From a virus, in IMG/VR virus record IMGVR_UViG_3300047560_000724, positions 16,580 to 80,579 of that record: a DNA stretch of 64,000 nucleotides. One strand, given 5' to 3'. The translations under genes and the position numbers were made by a program. Shown here piece by piece: positions 37,037 to 48,647 of this stretch (position 1 is its first letter; the number at the start of each line of letters is the position of its first letter). The notes below the pieces were generated by a model, which did no database searches, was not told the origin of the DNA, and saw nothing but the letters and a program-made list of their open reading frames with translations.

Positions 37037-37060
37037 AAATAGGCCCCGAAGGGCCTATTT
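37037..37060 (-). terminator. Intrinsic terminator
   Basis: AAATAGGCCC TTCG GGGCCTATTT followed by Ts. Confidence 0.8.
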
Positions 37061-37523
37061 ACTGTGCGTACCAAATTTGGCTAAAGCCTTCATCTAAGGT
37101 CGGTTCTTCCCATCCGTCAATCATTTGATCTACAACATATTTTGGAATATGCTTACCAGGACGACCTGACAACCTTACATCTAACTCATCGCGATTCGGT
37201 GTACGGAATACAATAGCAATGTGTTCGTAATCCGGCAAGGTATTAAACTTTCGGGTACGACTCGCGATAGTGGTACTAGTCTGATCCCAGATTAAATCCA
37301 AATTGTTTGCTTGACAAATTAATGCTTGATTAACCATTAACTTAACTGCAATTGGCATATAATCTTTAAATACTTCGGAATAAGTTTTACCTTGTTCCTT
37401 AGCATAGGCTTCTACAAACGAATCTGTACAGACTACAGGCATATCCTTAGCCCAATCTTGATTAGAAATCCAGGTGCTTTTTCCAGCACCCGGAACTCCT
37501 ACTAGTTGATAACACTTTGGCAT
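37059..37523 (-). CDS. P-loop kinase (polynucleotide kinase-like)
   Basis: GVPGAGKST, WDQT...R, R..RPGK.IP. Confidence 0.8.
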   Translation of the reverse strand: MPKCYQLVGVPGAGKSTWISNQDWAKDMPVVCTDSFVEAYAKEQGKTYSEVFKDYMPIAVKLMVNQALICQANNLDLIWDQTSTTIASRTRKFNTLPDYEHIAIVFRTPNRDELDVRLSGRPGKHIPKYVVDQMIDGWEEPTLDEGFSQIWYAQ

Positions 37524-37531
37524 ACTACTCC

Positions 37532-38137
37532 TTACATCGTTGGGCCGTTGCCCGATCTGAAACCAACAACACCGCCTTCTTCGGCGATACGCTTTAACAC
37601 ATCTTCAAATAAGATAGGTGCAAAGTCCGGTGTTTGTTCCACACAAACGCAATGGTAGCGTGGATCAATTTCATCACCATATAACACTTCGCCGGTCTTG
37701 GCATCAACACCACGAGCTTTCATAACACGATTTGCGTGTAAGTGTCCGTGAATGTTAACACCAAAACGACCTAAGCTATCTGCGTGTACAGGAATATGGC
37801 TTAAGATCATTCCGTTCATAACATGGTATGCTCGTAATTCTCTAAAGTACTGCCTGTACTCGTCATCTCTAAAGATGTCGTGGTTACCACGAATTAAAAC
37901 CTTATCACCGTTCAAGCGATGTAACACTTTTAAGGCCTTGCGGTTAATAACAACATCGCCTAAATGGTAAACCTTGTCAGTAGGCTTGACTCTTTCGTTC
38001 CAAGCCCTGACCATAGCTTCGTCCATTTCGTCCGGGTCATCCCACGGCCTTAACTTTGTAAACCCGTCGTTCCGGGTGAAGCGACATACACCTGTGTGAC
38101 CAAAGTGCGTATCGCTAACTAAAAATACACTAGGCAT
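37532..38137 (-). CDS. Calcineurin-like metallophosphoesterase
   Basis: SDTHFGH, LGD, GNHD, HGHLH. Confidence 0.9.
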   Translation of the reverse strand: MPSVFLVSDTHFGHTGVCRFTRNDGFTKLRPWDDPDEMDEAMVRAWNERVKPTDKVYHLGDVVINRKALKVLHRLNGDKVLIRGNHDIFRDDEYRQYFRELRAYHVMNGMILSHIPVHADSLGRFGVNIHGHLHANRVMKARGVDAKTGEVLYGDEIDPRYHCVCVEQTPDFAPILFEDVLKRIAEEGGVVGFRSGNGPTM

Positions 38138-38634
38138 TATATGTCTCCTTCATAGTTCTTTGGCACAATCAAACCACTGTCTAATTCAATGCCGTTAATC
38201 GTATGGGGCTCGTTTTCATCGTAAGTCCAACCGAGCACCTTCATCATTTTATGCTTGACCATCAAGTTAGGGCTACGAAAAACTTCAGTATCACGGAAGC
38301 CCATCATAACTCCAACCTCGCAGACTGCACCCGAACGGCACACACCTGCAACACAATGCACAACAACATTCATTCGTTGTTCCATTGCATGTTCTAGCAA
38401 TCGAACAAGTCTTTCGGCTTGCTCGTCTGTAACCTTAAAGTCGTCGCCCCACTTGTCGTCTTGTTCCAAATCCAAGAACTCAAACTGATGAGTTTCACGG
38501 AACTGATGCCTAGGAGTAGGGAACTCCATAGCAGGGTCAACTATTTGAATGAGCATACTGTTAATGCCCGCATCAATGTGATGGCCTTTTGGAATGTCAG
38601 CAAACGAGACATTTTGAATCCACGGGGTTAACAT
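38137..38634 (-). CDS. Cys-dependent (dual-specificity/tyrosine-type) phosphatase
   Basis: VHCVAGVCRS (HCxxGxxRS). Confidence 0.85.
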   Translation of the reverse strand: MLTPWIQNVSFADIPKGHHIDAGINSMLIQIVDPAMEFPTPRHQFRETHQFEFLDLEQDDKWGDDFKVTDEQAERLVRLLEHAMEQRMNVVVHCVAGVCRSGAVCEVGVMMGFRDTEVFRSPNLMVKHKMMKVLGWTYDENEPHTINGIELDSGLIVPKNYEGDI

Positions 38635-38657
38635 GTCGCTCTCCTTATTATTTGTAT

Positions 38658-38686
38658 ATTATAGCACAAAATTTTGGCTAAGTCAA
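38658..38686 (-). promoter_or_regulatory. Sigma70-type promoter of the phosphatase/kinase cluster
   Basis: TTGACT-17-TATAAT. Confidence 0.75.
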
Positions 38687-38689
38687 TCT

Positions 38690-38716
38690 AAAAAAATAGG
38701 GCCCAAAGGCCCTATT
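38690..38716 (-). terminator. Intrinsic terminator after Ro60-like gene
   Basis: AATAGGGCC/GGCCCTATT hairpin plus T-run. Confidence 0.8.
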
Positions 38717-38743
38717 CAAACTGTGTTGTATTTCTACAACAGT

Positions 38744-40153
38744 TTACAGGTCGTAGCGTGGGACCATTACAGTCTTAAGCATAATACCTTCTGGAGTGAA
38801 CTGATCAAGATCAGCACTCAAAAGAGCTGTCATAATGCTTGGGCTGAACCCTGACACCAAAGCAGCTCCTGTCTTGTCTGCCTTAACAGGTACATTGTCT
38901 GAACTGTTTAGGTTCCAGAAAACAATCTGTGGCATTGCATAGCCAGCGGCTTCGAACTTGCGTTCGATCATTTCCATTGCGCTATCGTCGTAACGGGCGC
39001 ATTGGTTGAATTGCATGTCTGACAAGATTAGTAGCATAGCTGGCATATCGCTAGCAGGAACATTTCCCTTAACTGCTGTGCTTAGGATCTTATCCATAGC
39101 GGCATGCAGGTTAGTACTCATTTCCCAGTTGCTACGAGACATTTGGTCAACCTTTTCAACAATGTTACCCTTTAGAGTAACAAGTTGTGGCTTGCTTGAG
39201 AAAGTCAAGAATGTGTCCTTGAACGCACCCTTGTTCTTGTCTGCAAGGTACAAGCCTAGGCTTACGGCTACATCAAGACAACGAACACTAGTGTCACGAC
39301 CTGCTGGGCAAGTCATAGAACCAGATACATCAACTAGAGGTAGGATACTTGCGTTGCCTACATAGTTTGGCAGAGCATCCCATTGTGCGATCACATGGTT
39401 AGTCTCTGTCTTGTCCAAAGTCTTGTAGCCGTGTGCGATGCCCTTTAGGACATCATGTGGGAAGATTGCGTTGGCGTTAACCTTAACAGTCTTATCCCCT
39501 GCCACCAACTTGGCCACATACTCTGCAAACGCAGGTGTGTGACGGTTGAATGCCTTCTTGTATTGGCGAGCCGCTACAGAAGGAACATGGCTAAAGTTGA
39601 TGTTATCCCAATCTCCTGCACACATTTGGGTTTCAACAACCTTTGTAAGTGCCACAAGGCTCTTACGGTATTGCTTTGGAGTCATGCCAAAGAAGGCACG
39701 GATCTCAGCGGCAATCTGACCCTTACGAGGAGTCCACTTTGCAGCCAAACCGTTCTTAGCACGAAGGGCATCGCCCAACATGGTATAAGCGGCTGACTTC
39801 AGAACTGGGTCTGAGAAGACAAAGATGTCATCCCAACGACCAACTTCTGGAACCTTGCGAAGCAAAGCCAAAGCGGCGTCTGGGTCACGCTTTTCTAGAT
39901 GAACTAGAATGTCGCGGAACAGTTGACGCTCACCTGCACCACCACGGACATCTCGTGCCCATTGTGCAATGCGAAGTGCAACATCAGAGTTTTCCACATA
40001 GGCTGCAGTGAAGTCAGCCTTAATATCCTTACCACGGCTTGCGCCGATCTTGTAGAACAAGTCAACACACGCCTTAGCTGTGGACTTACGAGCCTTCATG
40101 CCATTGGCAGTACGGGCTTCTTGATTTGCGATTGCGTTTACAAATGCGTTCAT
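38744..40153 (-). CDS. TROVE/Ro60-like protein with vWA domain (DUF2828 type)
   Basis: Helical N-terminus RDVRGGAGER...GRWDD...AAKW.PR; MIDAS DVSGSM...STN...LSDMQF. Confidence 0.75.
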   Translation of the reverse strand: MNAFVNAIANQEARTANGMKARKSTAKACVDLFYKIGASRGKDIKADFTAAYVENSDVALRIAQWARDVRGGAGERQLFRDILVHLEKRDPDAALALLRKVPEVGRWDDIFVFSDPVLKSAAYTMLGDALRAKNGLAAKWTPRKGQIAAEIRAFFGMTPKQYRKSLVALTKVVETQMCAGDWDNINFSHVPSVAARQYKKAFNRHTPAFAEYVAKLVAGDKTVKVNANAIFPHDVLKGIAHGYKTLDKTETNHVIAQWDALPNYVGNASILPLVDVSGSMTCPAGRDTSVRCLDVAVSLGLYLADKNKGAFKDTFLTFSSKPQLVTLKGNIVEKVDQMSRSNWEMSTNLHAAMDKILSTAVKGNVPASDMPAMLLILSDMQFNQCARYDDSAMEMIERKFEAAGYAMPQIVFWNLNSSDNVPVKADKTGAALVSGFSPSIMTALLSADLDQFTPEGIMLKTVMVPRYDL

Positions 40154-40163
40154 TTTATTACCT

Positions 40164-40220
40164 CACAGAATGTATTGTTTTTCGATATGCTTGAAAATTG
40201 AAAGTTGCTGTTAACATTCT
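40164..40220 (-). ncRNA. Stem-ACAGCAA module copy 1 (5' UTR of Ro60-like gene)
   Basis: AGAATGT-TA-ACAGCAA...ACATTCT-GTG abutting the GAGG SD. Confidence 0.7.
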
Positions 40221-40228
40221 AAAATTCT

Positions 40229-40461
40229 AACAGGATGATTGTGCCAATTTGTTTATTATTCTGGTCTGACCAATTACGGCACTCAGACCCTAACAACAAT
40301 TCATGTTGTCTATCTTGTATTGTGTCTGTACAAGCATCATATTACGGATTCTCCGTACCTATCTATTCCTTCGGCGTCTATTTCTAGAAAGCATTTCTGC
40401 TTGTCCTCCGACCGCCTTCTATAGCTGTAGTCGTAGTAGTTTAAATTGCTGTAGTCATCCT
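40229..40461 (-). ncRNA. Stem-ACAGCAA module copy 2 (233 nt, multi-hairpin insert)
   Basis: AGGATGA-CT-ACAGCAA...TCATCCT-GTT. Confidence 0.7.
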
Positions 40462-40467
40462 ATGACT

Positions 40468-40636
40468 AACAGGATCGTTGTTGACTGCTTTTATTAGACT
40501 CAGGCCATCACTCTGAGCTCGTCCAGGGCATTTCAATAGTTACCTTCAACATACTCGGGCGAACCTCTGTACTCCAATAACTACCATGCACTATCCAGAC
40601 CTTTCATAGTAATATGAATGTTGCTGTGCCGATCCT
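40468..40636 (-). ncRNA. Stem-ACAGCAA module copy 3 (169 nt)
   Basis: AGGATCG-GC-ACAGCAA...CGATCCT-GTT. Confidence 0.7.
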
Positions 40637-40668
40637 AAAACTGTTTGTTAATTGCTTAACATGTATCT

Positions 40669-40697
40669 ATTATAGTACAGATTGTACTTCTTGTCAC
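40669..40697 (-). promoter_or_regulatory. Sigma70-type promoter for modules 1-3 and Ro60-like gene
   Basis: GTGACA-17-TATAAT with upstream TTAGCCAAAA. Confidence 0.7.
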
Positions 40698-40728
40698 TAT
40701 ATTTTGGCTAAATTCGCAAAATATATTT

Positions 40729-40806
40729 TGGAGCAACGGGAGGGATTTGAACCCCCGGTTTTACGGATTTGCAATCCGTTGCATTGGGCCGCTCTGCCAC
40801 CGTTGC
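40729..40806 (-). tRNA. tRNA-Cys(GCA)
   Basis: Cloverleaf, loop TTGCAAA, encoded CCA. Confidence 0.9.
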
Positions 40807-40811
40807 ATATT

Positions 40812-40887
40812 TGGTGGGTCCTGACGGGCTCGAACCGCCGACATTCTGCGTGTAAGGCAGACGCTCTACCAACTGAGCTAAGGACCC
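40812..40887 (-). tRNA. tRNA-Val(TAC), canonical
   Basis: Cloverleaf, loop CTTACAC, CCA. Confidence 0.95.
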
Positions 40888-40894
40888 AAATGCT

Positions 40895-41125
40895 TTACTT
40901 GACTCGCTTCAAGTACTCTTTACCAATCTTACCTTCTTGAATTTCTTCTAAGGCTGTAATGATAGGAAAAATATGTTCTCGCTTAGTGCTTTCTTGATTG
41001 TGTCTTTTGATTTCTCTAGACCTTGCCGCAGCAATTAATACAAGATCAAATCTATTCTCCCCTGCATTAGTAACACACTTGTCAGTGTCAATACCAGTAC
41101 CACGACTATCACTTAGCTTTCTCAT
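40895..41125 (-). CDS. rpoZ: RNA polymerase omega subunit-like
   Basis: NRFDLVLIAAARSREI...TALEEIQEGKI. Confidence 0.8.
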   Translation of the reverse strand: MRKLSDSRGTGIDTDKCVTNAGENRFDLVLIAAARSREIKRHNQESTKREHIFPIITALEEIQEGKIGKEYLKRVK

Positions 41126-41153
41126 ATAATATCCTCTTTGTGTATTTAATACT

Positions 41154-41228
41154 TGGTCCCGTTACCAAGAATCGAACTTGGATCTAATTCTTAGGAGGAA
41201 CTTGTTCTATCCATTGAACTATAACGAG
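41154..41228 (-). tRNA. tRNA-Arg(CCT)
   Basis: Cloverleaf, loop CTCCTAA, CCA. Confidence 0.9.
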
Positions 41229-41229
41229 A

Positions 41230-41319
41230 TGGTCCCCCGTTGAGGAATCGAACCTCATCCTGGACCTTATCTAGATTAAGGTGTTATAAGCACCCCTGCT
41301 CTCCATGAGCTAACGGGGG
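41230..41319 (-). tRNA. Atypical tRNA-Ile(TAT) with long variable region
   Basis: CCCCCGT/ACGGGGG acceptor, loop CTTATAA, about 20-nt variable region. Confidence 0.7.
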
Positions 41320-41326
41320 ATGAAGT

Positions 41327-41400
41327 TGGTTGCGGGTCCCGGAATCGAACCAGGATCTCGAGCTTATGAGACTCGTGAGTTACCGTTTCTCTAACCCGCT
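41327..41400 (-). tRNA. tRNA-Met(CAT) with 1:72 mismatch (initiator-like)
   Basis: Loop CTCATAA, A1xA72; lacks three G-C anticodon-stem pairs. Confidence 0.8.
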
Positions 41401-41406
41401 ATAAAT

Positions 41407-41483
41407 TGGTCGGAGTACAAGGATTCGAACCTTGGACCCCCTGGTCCCAAACCAGGTGCGCTACCAGACTGCGCCACACTCCG
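41407..41483 (-). tRNA. tRNA-Pro(TGG), canonical
   Basis: Loop TTTGGGA, CCA. Confidence 0.95.
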
Positions 41484-41485
41484 AA

Positions 41486-41698
41486 TTAAACTGTTGTTTT
41501 CTTTTTCCTAGTCTTCTTAACTGGAATTTCTGCACTCGCTACACTAGCAATAGCTTCTTGGACATCACGCATAAGGGCTTCGTCGTCCCATATAAGTTCT
41601 GTACTTCCGTCTTCAAATGTCTTAACGGTTAGGTGACTACCTTGATTAATCTTTGGCCATCCGTTAGCTTCTACATTTTTTAATTTCTTAGTCGCCAT
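41486..41698 (-). CDS. Hypothetical protein
   Basis: AAGGA SD, 70 aa between tRNAs. Confidence 0.7.
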   Translation of the reverse strand: MATKKLKNVEANGWPKINQGSHLTVKTFEDGSTELIWDDEALMRDVQEAIASVASAEIPVKKTRKKKTTV

Positions 41699-41716
41699 TT
41701 GCTAGTCCTTAAAATT

Positions 41717-41789
41717 TGGAGCGGGTAGTCGGATTCGAACCGGCTTCTTTAGCTTGGAAGGCTAAGTCCTCTCCCAGGAGAATACCCGC
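41717..41789 (-). tRNA. tRNA-Gly(TCC), atypical D arm
   Basis: Loop CTTCCAA, U73, CCA. Confidence 0.85.
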
Positions 41790-41992
41790 ATAGTGTTTAG
41801 CTACTCCCACCACAGGAGCCCTAAACTGAGCTGTTACTCTGTCCACTAGCCTTTCCATCTAGACGGTGCTGAGGTCCGCCTTTGTGATTTCTCAAGTCGC
41901 TTTACACAAGCCTTGCGGTAGATCCAATGCACCGAGCTATTAAGGTTTAAGCAATTACCTAACTCTATTACGCTGAGTTAACGCGGGGTTTT
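41790..41992 (-). ncRNA. Unassigned structured intergenic RNA candidate
   Basis: About 200 nt, relatively GC-rich, no ORF in the track, several hairpins between tRNAs. Confidence 0.4.
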
Positions 41993-42068
41993 TGGTGCCC
42001 CTTGTCCGACTCGAACAGACCACCTACTGATTACAAATCAGTTGCTCTACCAGATGAGCTAAAGGGGC
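41993..42068 (-). tRNA. tRNA-Thr(TGT), canonical
   Basis: Loop TTTGTAA, CCA. Confidence 0.93.
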
Positions 42069-42074
42069 GTATTG

Positions 42075-42335
42075 TTATTTAATTTCGTTACCTGCTAGGT
42101 CTGCTTTTCCAGTCTCATAAAGTTCTTTGCGTCTTGCAAATTCATCTTCACTTAAACCGTGCCAACCAATACACTTGCCAGTTGGGCTACGGCCACACCC
42201 GCATCTTCCAACTTCGTCTATATTTTCTTTTACTCTTACTTGCATATCTTTATCTTTTTTAAAAATTGCATCCCAGTTACTATCAAATGTAGTTAATGGA
42301 ACACTTAACGGTCTTGCTTTACTGCCTTTACCCAT
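42075..42335 (-). CDS. CDGSH-type Fe-S/zinc-finger protein
   Basis: CGCGRSPTGKCIGWH; AGGAG SD before MGKG. Confidence 0.7.
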   Translation of the reverse strand: MGKGSKARPLSVPLTTFDSNWDAIFKKDKDMQVRVKENIDEVGRCGCGRSPTGKCIGWHGLSEDEFARRKELYETGKADLAGNEIK

Positions 42336-46558: not shown

Positions 46559-46566
46559 ATAGAAAA

Positions 46567-46684
46567 AACAGGATACATTTTATAGCGCACTACCAATTGT
46601 GCTAACTTGGCATGAAGCCAAATGTTGGACTCGAACCAACAACCTCTCGCTTAGAAGGCGAAAATTGTTTGCTGTTAGTATCCT
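46567..46684 (-). ncRNA. Stem-ACAGCAA module copy 4 carrying circularly permuted tRNA-Arg(TCT)
   Basis: Order anticodon arm, T arm, loop-closed 7-bp acceptor, D arm inside AGGATAC/GTATCCT. Confidence 0.85.
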
Positions 46685-46689
46685 AAACT

Positions 46690-47419: not shown

Positions 47420-47440
47420 CTAGCGTTTACCGCGTTTCAT
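47420..47440 (-). other. Minigene MKRGKR* followed by a hairpin
   Basis: AAGGAG SD, ATG AAA CGC GGT AAA CGC TAG; stem 47384-47420. Confidence 0.5.
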
Positions 47441-47470: not shown

Positions 47471-47535
47471 AACAGGATGTATTTTTACGGTTTTGATTAA
47501 AAGTCAAATGTATAAATTTTTGCTGTTAACATCCT
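47471..47535 (-). ncRNA. Stem-ACAGCAA module copy 5 carrying isolated Lys(UUU) anticodon stem-loop
   Basis: AGGATGT/ACATCCT enclosing TTTGA CTTTTAA TCAAA. Confidence 0.8.
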
Positions 47536-47540
47536 TAACT

Positions 47541-47614: not shown

Positions 47615-47621
47615 AAATTTA

Positions 47622-47737
47622 AACAGGATAGAATTTAACATAGTGCTACCGTTACACCAAACCTTTCGGCTGCGGAGTCGAACCGCTCCCTTACTTTTCA
47701 AGAGTAGTGAGTTAATTATTTTTGCTGTTACTATCCT
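47622..47737 (-). ncRNA. Stem-ACAGCAA module copy 6 carrying permuted tRNA mimic with Ser(UGA) loop
   Basis: TACT CTTGAAA AGTA, GCGG TTCGACT CCGC, AGCC GAAA GGTT, D-arm-like GTGTAACGGTAGCAC. Confidence 0.8.
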
Positions 47738-47741
47738 TAAC

Positions 47742-48583: not shown

Positions 48584-48642
48584 AACAGGATACATTCTTT
48601 TTCACCATTTGAAAGTTGATTAAGATTTGCTGTTAGTATCCT
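48584..48642 (-). ncRNA. Stem-ACAGCAA module copy 7 carrying Glu(UUC)-like anticodon loop
   Basis: AGGATAC/GTATCCT enclosing ATCA-A-CTTTCAA-A-TGGT. Confidence 0.75.
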
Positions 48643-48647
48643 TAAAC

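What the first reader, a model, noticed from the sequence alone, without database searches (positions are those of the whole stretch)
40151..40220. Module copy abutting the Ro60-like gene's ribosome-binding site suggests autoregulation
Seen: ...ACATTCT-GTGAGGTAATAAAATG. The module's 3' tail runs directly into the GAGG Shine-Dalgarno of the 469-aa gene. Inference: free protein binds its own leader and represses translation, which would match protein level to the number of RNA modules. This placement is independent support that the protein is the module's ligand.
Basis: inference. Interest (0 to 1): 0.7.

Follow-up and report, generated by a model that had tools for sequence, protein, structure and literature searches.

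The report
Partner-RNA handle at Ro60-like gene's ribosome site
A freshwater jumbo-phage gene for a Ro60-shaped RNA-binding protein carries, one base from its ribosome-binding site, a stripped-down copy of the RNA "handle" found on the phage's Y-RNA-like small RNAs, and many unrelated phages do the same, so the protein probably limits its own translation, though no binding has been shown.

Summary
Observation confirmed. On the minus strand a 56-nt hairpin (40166-40221) has an 8-bp closing stem, UA, ACAGCAA and an A/U-rich loop. It ends one base before GAGG (40161-40164), and AUG is at 40153.

The 469-aa product (Pfam DUF2828/DUF7788) has a predicted Ro60 fold. Six more copies of the handle lie upstream, four of them in the tRNA array.

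- In 48 distinct leaders of close relatives, the stem pairs in every case and shows compensatory changes.
- Across 64 protein lineages, 18 have a handle ending -10 to +30 nt from the start codon. Shuffles predict 0.85, and neighbouring ORFs show 1 of 48.
- In KVP40-like phages and one other lineage the handle encloses the Shine-Dalgarno and the AUG.
- KVP40 and DLP_6 keep stronger free copies 7-10 kb away in tRNA arrays, plus this minimal copy at the gene.

Many lineages have no leader copy, and RNA genes abut ORFs elsewhere in this genome, so abutment alone proves little.

Autogenous translational repression is the best reading (about 0.5) and is untested. I found no paper describing it. This scan had already noted the same leader copy in at least seven other genomes.

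The parts
40166..40221 (-). U3, the minimal handle hairpin. It consists of the U.G closing pair, the 7-bp stem AGAAUGU/ACAUUCU, the spacer UA, the single-stranded ACAGCAA (40205-40211) and a 31-nt A/U-rich loop with no cargo domain.
   Evidence: Sequence; pattern search; covariation in 48 unselected relatives; covariance model R1 gives 47.6 bits; full-length weak match to Rfam RF01414.
40161..40164 (-). Shine-Dalgarno GAGG, one base 3' of the closing G of U3 and 7 nt before the AUG.
   Evidence: Sequence. Relatives read CUG-UAAAGG, CUG-AAAGGA or CUG-UGAGG at the same place.
38744..40153 (-). Gene for the 469-aa Ro60-like protein (Pfam DUF2828 + DUF7788; helical ring plus vWA domain with DxSxS).
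   Evidence: ORF; Pfam; AlphaFold2 pLDDT 92.6; top 13 Foldseek PDB hits are all Ro60/TROVE.
40231..40462 (-). U2, a handle RNA with about 200 nt of cargo (stem AGGAUGA/UCAUCCU), immediately 5' of U3.
40470..40637 (-). U1, a handle RNA with about 135 nt of cargo (stem AGGAUCG/CGAUCCU), the first of the three leader units.
40669..40697 (-). Promoter-like site GTGACA-17-TATAAT upstream of U1 (consensus match only).
   Evidence: 11 of 12 positions match, but the number of sites in the region is not above the shuffles.
38694..38717 (-). Terminator-like hairpin plus U run, 26 nt after the stop codon. It suggests a unit of promoter, U1-U2-U3, gene, terminator.

Best explanation
U3 is a cis-acting operator. 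It is a minimal, cargo-less mimic of the handle (closing stem plus ACAGCAA) that marks the phage's Y-RNA-like small RNAs, and it sits in the 5' leader of the mRNA for the Ro60-like protein that most likely binds that handle.

Proposed mechanism: when free protein exceeds the available handle RNAs, it binds U3. The stem ends one base from the Shine-Dalgarno, so a bound 52-kDa ring would keep the 30S subunit off the site, and synthesis would track the pool of partner RNAs.

Shown here:
- the element, its covarying stem and its position;
- recurrence of that position in unrelated phages;
- the Ro60-like fold of the protein.

Inferred:
- that the protein binds the handle;
- that binding represses rather than stabilises or activates.
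For: 1. Position and structure are conserved in about 75 of 77 close relatives. Stem pairing is 100%, with compensatory changes, while the loop drifts.
2. Across 64 lineages, 18 have a handle whose 3' arm ends -10..+30 nt from the AUG. Shuffles predict 0.85, and neighbouring same-strand ORF starts show 1 of 48 (Fisher p = 2e-4). Examples with different arms: DLP_6 UCAAUCU-GGAG, phiN3 UCGUUUU-GAAAAGGA, L122 UAAUUCU-GAGGAG, L191 AAAUUCU-GAAGGAG.
3. In KVP40, VH7D and D525 (GACAUU/AAUGUC) and in L262 (UGGUUCAU/AUGAACCA), the SD lies in the loop and the start codon lies in the 3' arm. Such a copy cannot be cut out as a free RNA without destroying the RBS.
4. Whole-record scans show that KVP40 and DLP_6 keep higher-scoring free handles in tRNA arrays 7-10 kb from the gene, plus the weaker copy at the RBS. 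phiN3 and BUCT-ZZ01 show the same pattern.
5. RBS-proximal copies are the short form (median 54 nt against 123 nt) with weaker arms. The stems are marginal on their own (-3.5 to -10 kcal/mol), as expected for a protein-dependent operator.
6. The protein has a Ro60 fold. The handle accompanies DUF2828 genes in Listeria, Campylobacter, Mycobacterium, Enterococcus, Staphylococcus and E. coli phages.
7. RNA-library contigs from four studies span both U3 and the CDS start. This is weak evidence.
Against: - No binding or repression data exist for any member of this family.
- Most lineages sampled (about 46 of 64) lack an RBS-proximal handle; theirs lie 11-200 nt downstream of the stop codon, farther upstream, or were not found.
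- RNA genes are tightly packed here. tRNA 3' ends lie 10, 18, 28 and 41 nt from the next AUG, so abutment may simply reflect compaction.
- Minimal cargo-less handles also exist away from any RBS, at 47472-47536 and 48585-48643.
- One full-size handle abuts another small ORF in L148.
- The trend toward weaker AGA-type arms in leader copies is not consistent at the lineage level.
- The module detector has a 10-30% background for long loops.
Confidence: 0.5

Rival explanations
1. U3 is simply the last small-RNA gene of a co-transcribed array (U1-U2-U3). It is cut out like the others and has no regulatory role. It touches the SD only because this genome packs RNA genes and ORFs with almost no spacer.
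For: - tRNA-to-AUG gaps of 10-41 nt occur elsewhere in the array.
- Free minimal handles of the same size lie in the tRNA array.
- In other lineages, handles sit 11-25 nt after the stop codon, which is equally tight.
- One handle abuts an unrelated small ORF in L148.
Against: - It does not explain phages in which the only handle near the gene is a single minimal copy in a short 5' UTR behind its own promoter, while the free copies lie kilobases away.
- It does not explain handles that contain the SD and AUG.
- The enrichment is specific to this gene: 18 of 64 against 1 of 48.
Confidence: 0.22
2. U3 is a 5'-terminal stabiliser or processing boundary. After U1 and U2 are excised, the hairpin, with or without bound protein, caps the mRNA's 5' end and protects it from 5'-end-dependent decay. 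On this reading it acts on mRNA stability, possibly positively, rather than by blocking initiation.
For: - The predicted unit of promoter, U1-U2-U3, gene and terminator requires processing of the leader.
- Several RNA-library contigs from different studies end at 40221-40226, the U2/U3 boundary, although others bridge it and the site varies between strains.
- 5' hairpins that stabilise bacterial mRNAs are well established (general knowledge, for example the ompA leader).
Against: - The stem is weak and A/U-rich, which makes it a poor stabiliser unless protein is bound.
- The handles that enclose the RBS fit occlusion better than end protection.
- Contigs cannot show true RNA ends.
Confidence: 0.18
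3. The hairpin is recognised by some other factor, or is a chance or relic copy with no function at this position.
For: - No direct evidence links the protein to the handle.
- In Dictyostelium, the only direct binder reported for the look-alike Class I RNAs is an RRM protein (PMC7919456).
Against: - The arms, ACAGCAA and spacing are conserved across 48 distinct leaders while the loop varies.
- The same arrangement recurs in unrelated phages.
- The handle co-occurs with DUF2828 genes family-wide.
Confidence: 0.1

Closest known systems
E. coli thrS operator (threonyl-tRNA synthetase autoregulation) and other autogenous translational operators that mimic the protein's normal RNA ligand (ribosomal proteins L1, S8, L20; phage MS2 coat protein/replicase hairpin; T4 RegA, gp32, gp43). 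Cited from established knowledge.
   Same: A reduced copy of the protein's usual RNA target sits next to or over the SD/AUG of the protein's own mRNA. In thrS the tRNA-anticodon-arm mimic lies immediately 5' of the SD, like the handle in this window. In MS2 the hairpin contains the start codon, like the KVP40 and L262 arrangement.
   Different: The protein here is a Ro60-shaped ring, for which I found no report of autoregulation. Binding and repression are untested. The arrangement is present in only part of the family.
Ro60/Rsr with Y RNAs encoded next to the gene (D. radiodurans Yrn1/2, M. smegmatis YrlA/YrlB, Thermus phage phiLo Yrl1/Yrl2; PMC4201824, PMC12135203).
   Same: - Ring-plus-vWA protein fold.
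- Partner-like small RNAs on the same strand upstream of the gene.
- Terminal stem formed by the 5' and 3' ends, with variable cargo.
- Some cargo is tRNA-like.
- In M. smegmatis both Y RNAs lie upstream and are processed from one precursor (PMC4201824).
   Different: - The protein matches Pfam DUF2828/DUF7788, not TROVE.
- The handle motif is ACAGCAA, not the Y-RNA bulged helix or the CGAA motif.
- No Rfam Y_RNA or YrlA hit appeared at E up to 10.
- No RBS-adjacent Y-RNA copy has been described for Rsr.
Dictyostelium Class I RNAs (Rfam RF01414; PMC7919456).
   Same: - Length of 42-65 nt.
- A short stem joining the 5' and 3' ends.
- A conserved 11-nt motif right after the 5' arm; the Rfam consensus reads CUUACAGCAA.
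- A variable middle, an A-rich 3' side, and UG after the 3' arm.
- It is the only Rfam family that aligns to U3, and it does so over its full length.
   Different: - The score is 19.8 bits, well below the gathering score of 41.5.
- Class I RNAs are free eukaryotic RNAs reported as unique to dictyostelids.
- Their only direct binder reported so far is an RRM protein.
- No RBS context exists for them.

Membership tests
Ro60/TROVE protein family | Helical-repeat ring followed by a vWA domain (overall fold). | tested here: met
   AlphaFold2 model with pLDDT 92.6 and pTM 0.91. The top 13 Foldseek PDB hits are all Ro60/TROVE (9kop, 1yvp, 2i91, 2nvo, 9nen), with E 2e-8 to 4e-5 and TM 0.55-0.65 over about 500 columns.
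Ro60/TROVE protein family | Sequence match to the Pfam TROVE domain. | tested here: not met
   Pfam gives DUF2828 (2.3e-27) and DUF7788 (4.7e-49) and no TROVE. The family profile reaches the TROVE chains 9l5y/9kop only at E 0.0066, and only over the vWA part.
Ro60/TROVE protein family | MIDAS-type DxSxS motif in the vWA domain. | tested here: met
   D275, S277 and S279 are invariant in 76 sequences.
Ro60/TROVE protein family | Binds Y-type RNA through its terminal stem. | not testable with these tools
   Only co-occurrence of the handle with the gene is available.
Y RNA / YrlA (Rfam) | Match to the family covariance model, conserved Ro-binding helix. | tested here: not met
   No Y_RNA or YrlA hit in 38600-42200 at E up to 10, nor in the window at gathering score.
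Y RNA / YrlA (Rfam) | Terminal stem formed by the 5' and 3' ends, gene-adjacent, same strand. | tested here: met
Y RNA / YrlA (Rfam) | tRNA-like domain. | tested here: not met
   U3 has only an A/U-rich loop. T-arm and D-arm-like cargo is present in the copies at about 46565-46687 and 47620-47740, not in U3.
Dictyostelium Class I RNA (RF01414) | Reaches the Rfam gathering score. | tested here: not met
   19.8 bits against 41.5. The alignment is full-length with a shared stem, ACAGCAA and UG.
Autogenous translational operator (ligand mimic at the RBS) | Element adjacent to or overlapping the SD/AUG of the regulator's own mRNA. | tested here: met
   One base lies between the closed stem and GAGG. 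The arrangement recurs in 18 of 64 lineages, and the RBS is enclosed in two.
Autogenous translational operator (ligand mimic at the RBS) | Element resembles the regulator's primary RNA ligand. | tested here: met
   The handle is the same as on the six other copies in the window and on the free copies in the tRNA arrays of KVP40 and DLP_6. That these are the ligands is itself an inference.
Autogenous translational operator (ligand mimic at the RBS) | Protein binds the element and lowers its own translation. | not testable with these tools
   Requires EMSA, toeprinting and reporter assays.

The most novel reading that the evidence does not exclude
A very large, uncharacterised family of phage Ro60-shaped proteins (DUF2828; 6261 clusters at 50% identity reached E 0.001) sets its own level through a decoy copy of its partner-RNA handle at its ribosome-binding site. 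This would be the first cis-regulatory use of a Y-RNA-type handle. The 35-57-nt leader hairpins would then define the minimal binding site (closing stem plus ACAGCAA), a motif shared with the unexplained Class I RNAs of Dictyostelium.
Probability: 0.45. Interest if true: 0.72.

Novelty: new variant of a known kind. Interest (0 to 1): 0.6.

Why it matters
If the reading is right, it gives a simple, testable entry into a widespread but unstudied phage ribonucleoprotein.
- The leader hairpin would be the minimal RNA needed for binding assays and structures.
- It would explain how the protein's level is matched to a variable number of partner RNAs embedded in tRNA arrays.
- It would extend ligand-mimic autoregulation, known for synthetases, ribosomal proteins and phage coat proteins, to the Ro60 fold.
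- One family member, Bas63 gp130, has been reported to counter the Ppl defence system (bioRxiv 10.1101/2024.10.10.617714), so control of this protein may matter for the outcome of infection.

Tried and rejected
- **Rfam Y_RNA/YrlA membership:** no hit.
- **Thermodynamic support:** leader folds are no more stable than shuffles, with z from -0.4 to +1. Energy neither supports nor refutes the stem; the support comes from covariation.
- **Promoter and terminator scans:** the number of sites is no higher than in shuffles, so the transcription-unit boundaries are tentative.
- **Metatranscriptome runs:** only short contigs were available. They bridge U3 and the CDS start, but they cannot show RNA ends, strand or level, and DNA carry-over is possible. 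The cluster of contig ends at 40221-40226 coincides with strain-variable bases and is not counted as a processing site.
- **Leader copies systematically carrying a weakened AGA arm:** true in pooled counts (45% against 13%) but mixed lineage by lineage. I keep it only as a trend.
- **Alignment A2:** its sequences were selected for pairing, so its 100% pairing is circular. I rely on the unselected alignment A3 instead.
- **More RBS-enclosing handles:** a search of all loci found only the KVP40 group and L262.
- **Leaders that differ:** L025 has a different leader and L028 has a duplication; both were left out of A3.

Full report
**What is there**

The window is part of an 80.6-kb IMG/VR phage fragment, estimated at about 21% complete. 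It carries 37 tRNA genes on the minus strand.

The ORF 38744-40153 (-) encodes 469 aa that match Pfam DUF2828 and DUF7788. The 575 nt between the start codon and tRNA-Cys (40729) hold three back-to-back units. Each has a 7-nt arm, two bases, ACAGCAA, a variable interior, the complementary arm and a G.

The third unit, U3, reads U-AGAAUGU-UA-ACAGCAA-(31 nt)-ACAUUCU-G at 40221..40166. It is followed by U, GAGG (40164-40161), seven bases and AUG (40153). Four more copies lie in the tRNA array, two of them with T-arm and D-arm-like cargo.

**Is the protein Ro60-like?**

Yes, by fold. An AlphaFold2 model built on 76 family members has pLDDT 92.6. Its 13 best PDB matches are all Ro60/TROVE structures: Thermus phage phiLo, Xenopus, Deinococcus and human, with E 2e-8 to 4e-5.

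By sequence it is not a TROVE-domain protein in Pfam. A family profile reaches TROVE chains only at E 0.0066. The family is very large, with 6261 clusters at 50% identity reaching E 0.001, and it occurs in 711 phage records.

**Is U3 a real structured element at a conserved place?**

Eighty IMG/VR relatives (86-93% protein identity) were fetched by protein homology alone.
- About 75 of the 77 with upstream DNA have the same hairpin in the same place.
- In an alignment of 48 distinct leaders, all 384 stem cells pair.
- Four of eight pairs show compensatory changes (AGGUUAU/AUAACCU, AGAAUGC/GCAUUCU).
- ACAGCAA, the U.G closure and CUG are invariant, while the loop accumulates substitutions and indels.
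- The stem is always followed within 1-3 bases by a purine-rich SD: UGAGG, UAAAGG or AAAGGA.

**Do distant homologs keep it at the SD?**

I collected 264 loci and grouped them into 64 lineages at 75% protein identity.
- A strict detector (NCAGCA plus 7 of 7 arm pairs) finds a handle whose 3' arm ends -10 to +30 nt from the AUG in 18 lineages.
- Dinucleotide shuffles predict 0.85. About two of the 18 look like false positives.
- The same test on 48 other same-strand ORF starts in these loci gives 1 (Fisher p = 2e-4).

The arms differ between lineages while the layout stays the same:

| Lineage | 3' arm and SD |
|---|---|
| DLP_6 | UCAAUCU-GGAG |
| phiN3 | UCGUUUU-GAAAAGGA |
| L122 | UAAUUCU-GAGGAG |
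| L148 | GCAAACU-GAAAGGAGG |
| L191 | AAAUUCU-GAAGGAG |
| BUCT-ZZ01 | 9 nt of spacer |
| Campylobacter F357 | 11 nt of spacer |

In two lineages the handle encloses the ribosome site. In KVP40, VH7D and D525 the stem GACAUU/AAUGUC has the SD in the loop and the AUG in the 3' arm. In L262 the stem is UGGUUCAU/AUGAACCA.

A covariance model of short handles was run over whole phage records. KVP40 and DLP_6 have higher-scoring free handles in their tRNA arrays, 7-10 kb from the gene, in addition to the weaker copy at the RBS. phiN3 and BUCT-ZZ01 show the same pattern.

RBS-proximal copies are typically the short, cargo-less form (median 54 nt against 123 nt), with fewer G-C pairs in the arms. The same order, cargo-bearing units followed by a minimal unit at the RBS, is seen in the window, in BUCT-ZZ01 and in L148.

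**What argues for caution**

- Most lineages lack a leader copy. Felix-O1-like, Staphylococcus and mycobacteriophage members and many marine lineages have their handles just after the stop codon. Listeria and Enterococcus phages have them 45-75 nt upstream with other structure in between. Some have none within the DNA fetched.
- Tight packing is the rule in this genome. tRNA 3' ends lie 10, 18, 28 and 41 nt from the next AUG.
- Minimal handles also occur with no RBS nearby.
- The stems are thermodynamically marginal, which is compatible with a protein-dependent operator but is not evidence for one.
- The detector has a non-trivial background when long loops are allowed.
- RNA-library contigs from four studies cover both U3 and the start of the coding region, but contigs cannot prove a single transcript or show ends.

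**Mechanism**

The best-supported reading is autogenous translational control by ligand mimicry.
1. The protein binds the handle on its partner RNAs.
2. Surplus protein binds the minimal handle in its own leader.
3. The bound protein sterically excludes the 30S subunit from the adjacent SD, or from the enclosed SD/AUG in the KVP40 and L262 arrangement.

The closest textbook analogue is the thrS operator, a tRNA-arm mimic placed just 5' of the SD. The KVP40 and L262 arrangement resembles the MS2 coat-protein hairpin.

Two rivals remain. One is that U3 is only the last RNA gene of a co-transcribed array. The other is that it is a 5'-end stabiliser or processing boundary. They are not mutually exclusive with repression. 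I put repression at about 0.5.

**Comparison with what is known**

- Y RNAs encoded upstream of Ro60 genes are known in bacteria and phages (PMC4201824, PMC12135203). Those RNAs and proteins belong to the TROVE/YrlA families, which this system does not match.
- I found no report of Ro60 autoregulation through its own leader.
- The only Rfam family that aligns to U3 is the Dictyostelium Class I RNA. It shares the stem, ACAGCAA and trailing UG, but scores 19.8 bits against a threshold of 41.5. The published description of Class I RNAs matches the architecture (PMC7919456).
- A Felixounavirus protein, Bas63 gp130, has been called Ro60-like and reported as a counter to the Ppl defence system (bioRxiv 10.1101/2024.10.10.617714). 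Felixounavirus members of this family were found here.

**Earlier notes of this scan**

Notes on this window describe the seven-member family (e1-6091123, e1-6091114), and I confirmed their coordinates. The leader copy and the autoregulation idea were already noted on at least seven other genomes (e1-5750612, e1-3635324, e1-5405108). These are unchecked AI notes, not independent evidence. My own census supports the pattern for a minority of lineages rather than for most.

**Verdict**

It is a new variant of a known regulatory principle, in a protein-RNA system that I did not find described in the literature I searched.

Noticed in passing
window 37059-38634 (-): Directly downstream of the Ro60-like gene, behind a terminator-like and a promoter-like site, lie three genes: a DSP-type cysteine phosphatase (38137-38634), a calcineurin-like metallophosphoesterase (37532-38137) and an AAA_33 P-loop kinase (37059-37523). 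Together they look like an RNA end-healing or repair cassette. DLP_6 has a kinase gene and Enterococcus phage VRE9_3 a phosphoesterase gene a short distance downstream of their homologs.
   Followed up: partly
window 40895-41125 (-): A 76-aa ORF inside the tRNA array matches the RNA polymerase Rpb6/omega family (Pfam PF01192, E 2e-9).
   Followed up: no
window 41790-41992 (-): About 200 nt between tRNA-Thr and tRNA-Gly have no tRNA, no Rfam hit and no handle. This is an unassigned, possibly structured RNA.
   Followed up: no
window 40166-40219 (-): The only Rfam family aligning to the leader hairpin is the Dictyostelium Class I RNA (RF01414). The alignment is full-length and shares the stem, ACAGCAA and UG, but scores 19.8 bits against a gathering score of 41.5. 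This may link the phage handles to an unexplained eukaryotic RNA class.
   Followed up: partly
L028:1423-1503: One close relative has a tandem duplication of the 3' arm, the SD and the first five codons. The first AUG reads in frame into the second, giving either a 16-aa N-terminal extension or two alternative ribosome sites.
   Followed up: no
L148:1-600: This locus holds two handle RNAs with complete T-arm and D-arm-like cargo. The first ends 19 nt before a 72-aa ORF. A minimal handle then sits at the RBS of the DUF2828 gene. It is the only case among 48 control ORFs where a handle abuts another gene.
   Followed up: partly
L352:270-350 (Salmonella phage Munch): The leader has a canonical-looking stem, U-A-AGAAAUG ... 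CAUUUCU-G, abutting GAGAGG. UCAACAC stands in place of ACAGCAA, which may be a decayed or variant operator.
   Followed up: no
window 47420-47440 (-): A 6-codon ORF (MKRGKR) with a strong AAGGAG site lies 33 nt after the minimal handle at 47472-47536. It is probably not a gene, but I did not examine it.
   Followed up: no
L085 and L087 (Citrobacter phage Ci1, Cronobacter phage S13): 'tRNA-OTHER' and 'tRNA-Pseudo' features annotated about 500-650 nt downstream of the homologous gene have ACAGCAA motifs beside them, 54 nt before the Ci1 feature and 19 nt after the S13 one. They may be handle RNAs with tRNA-like cargo that were mis-called as tRNAs.
   Followed up: no
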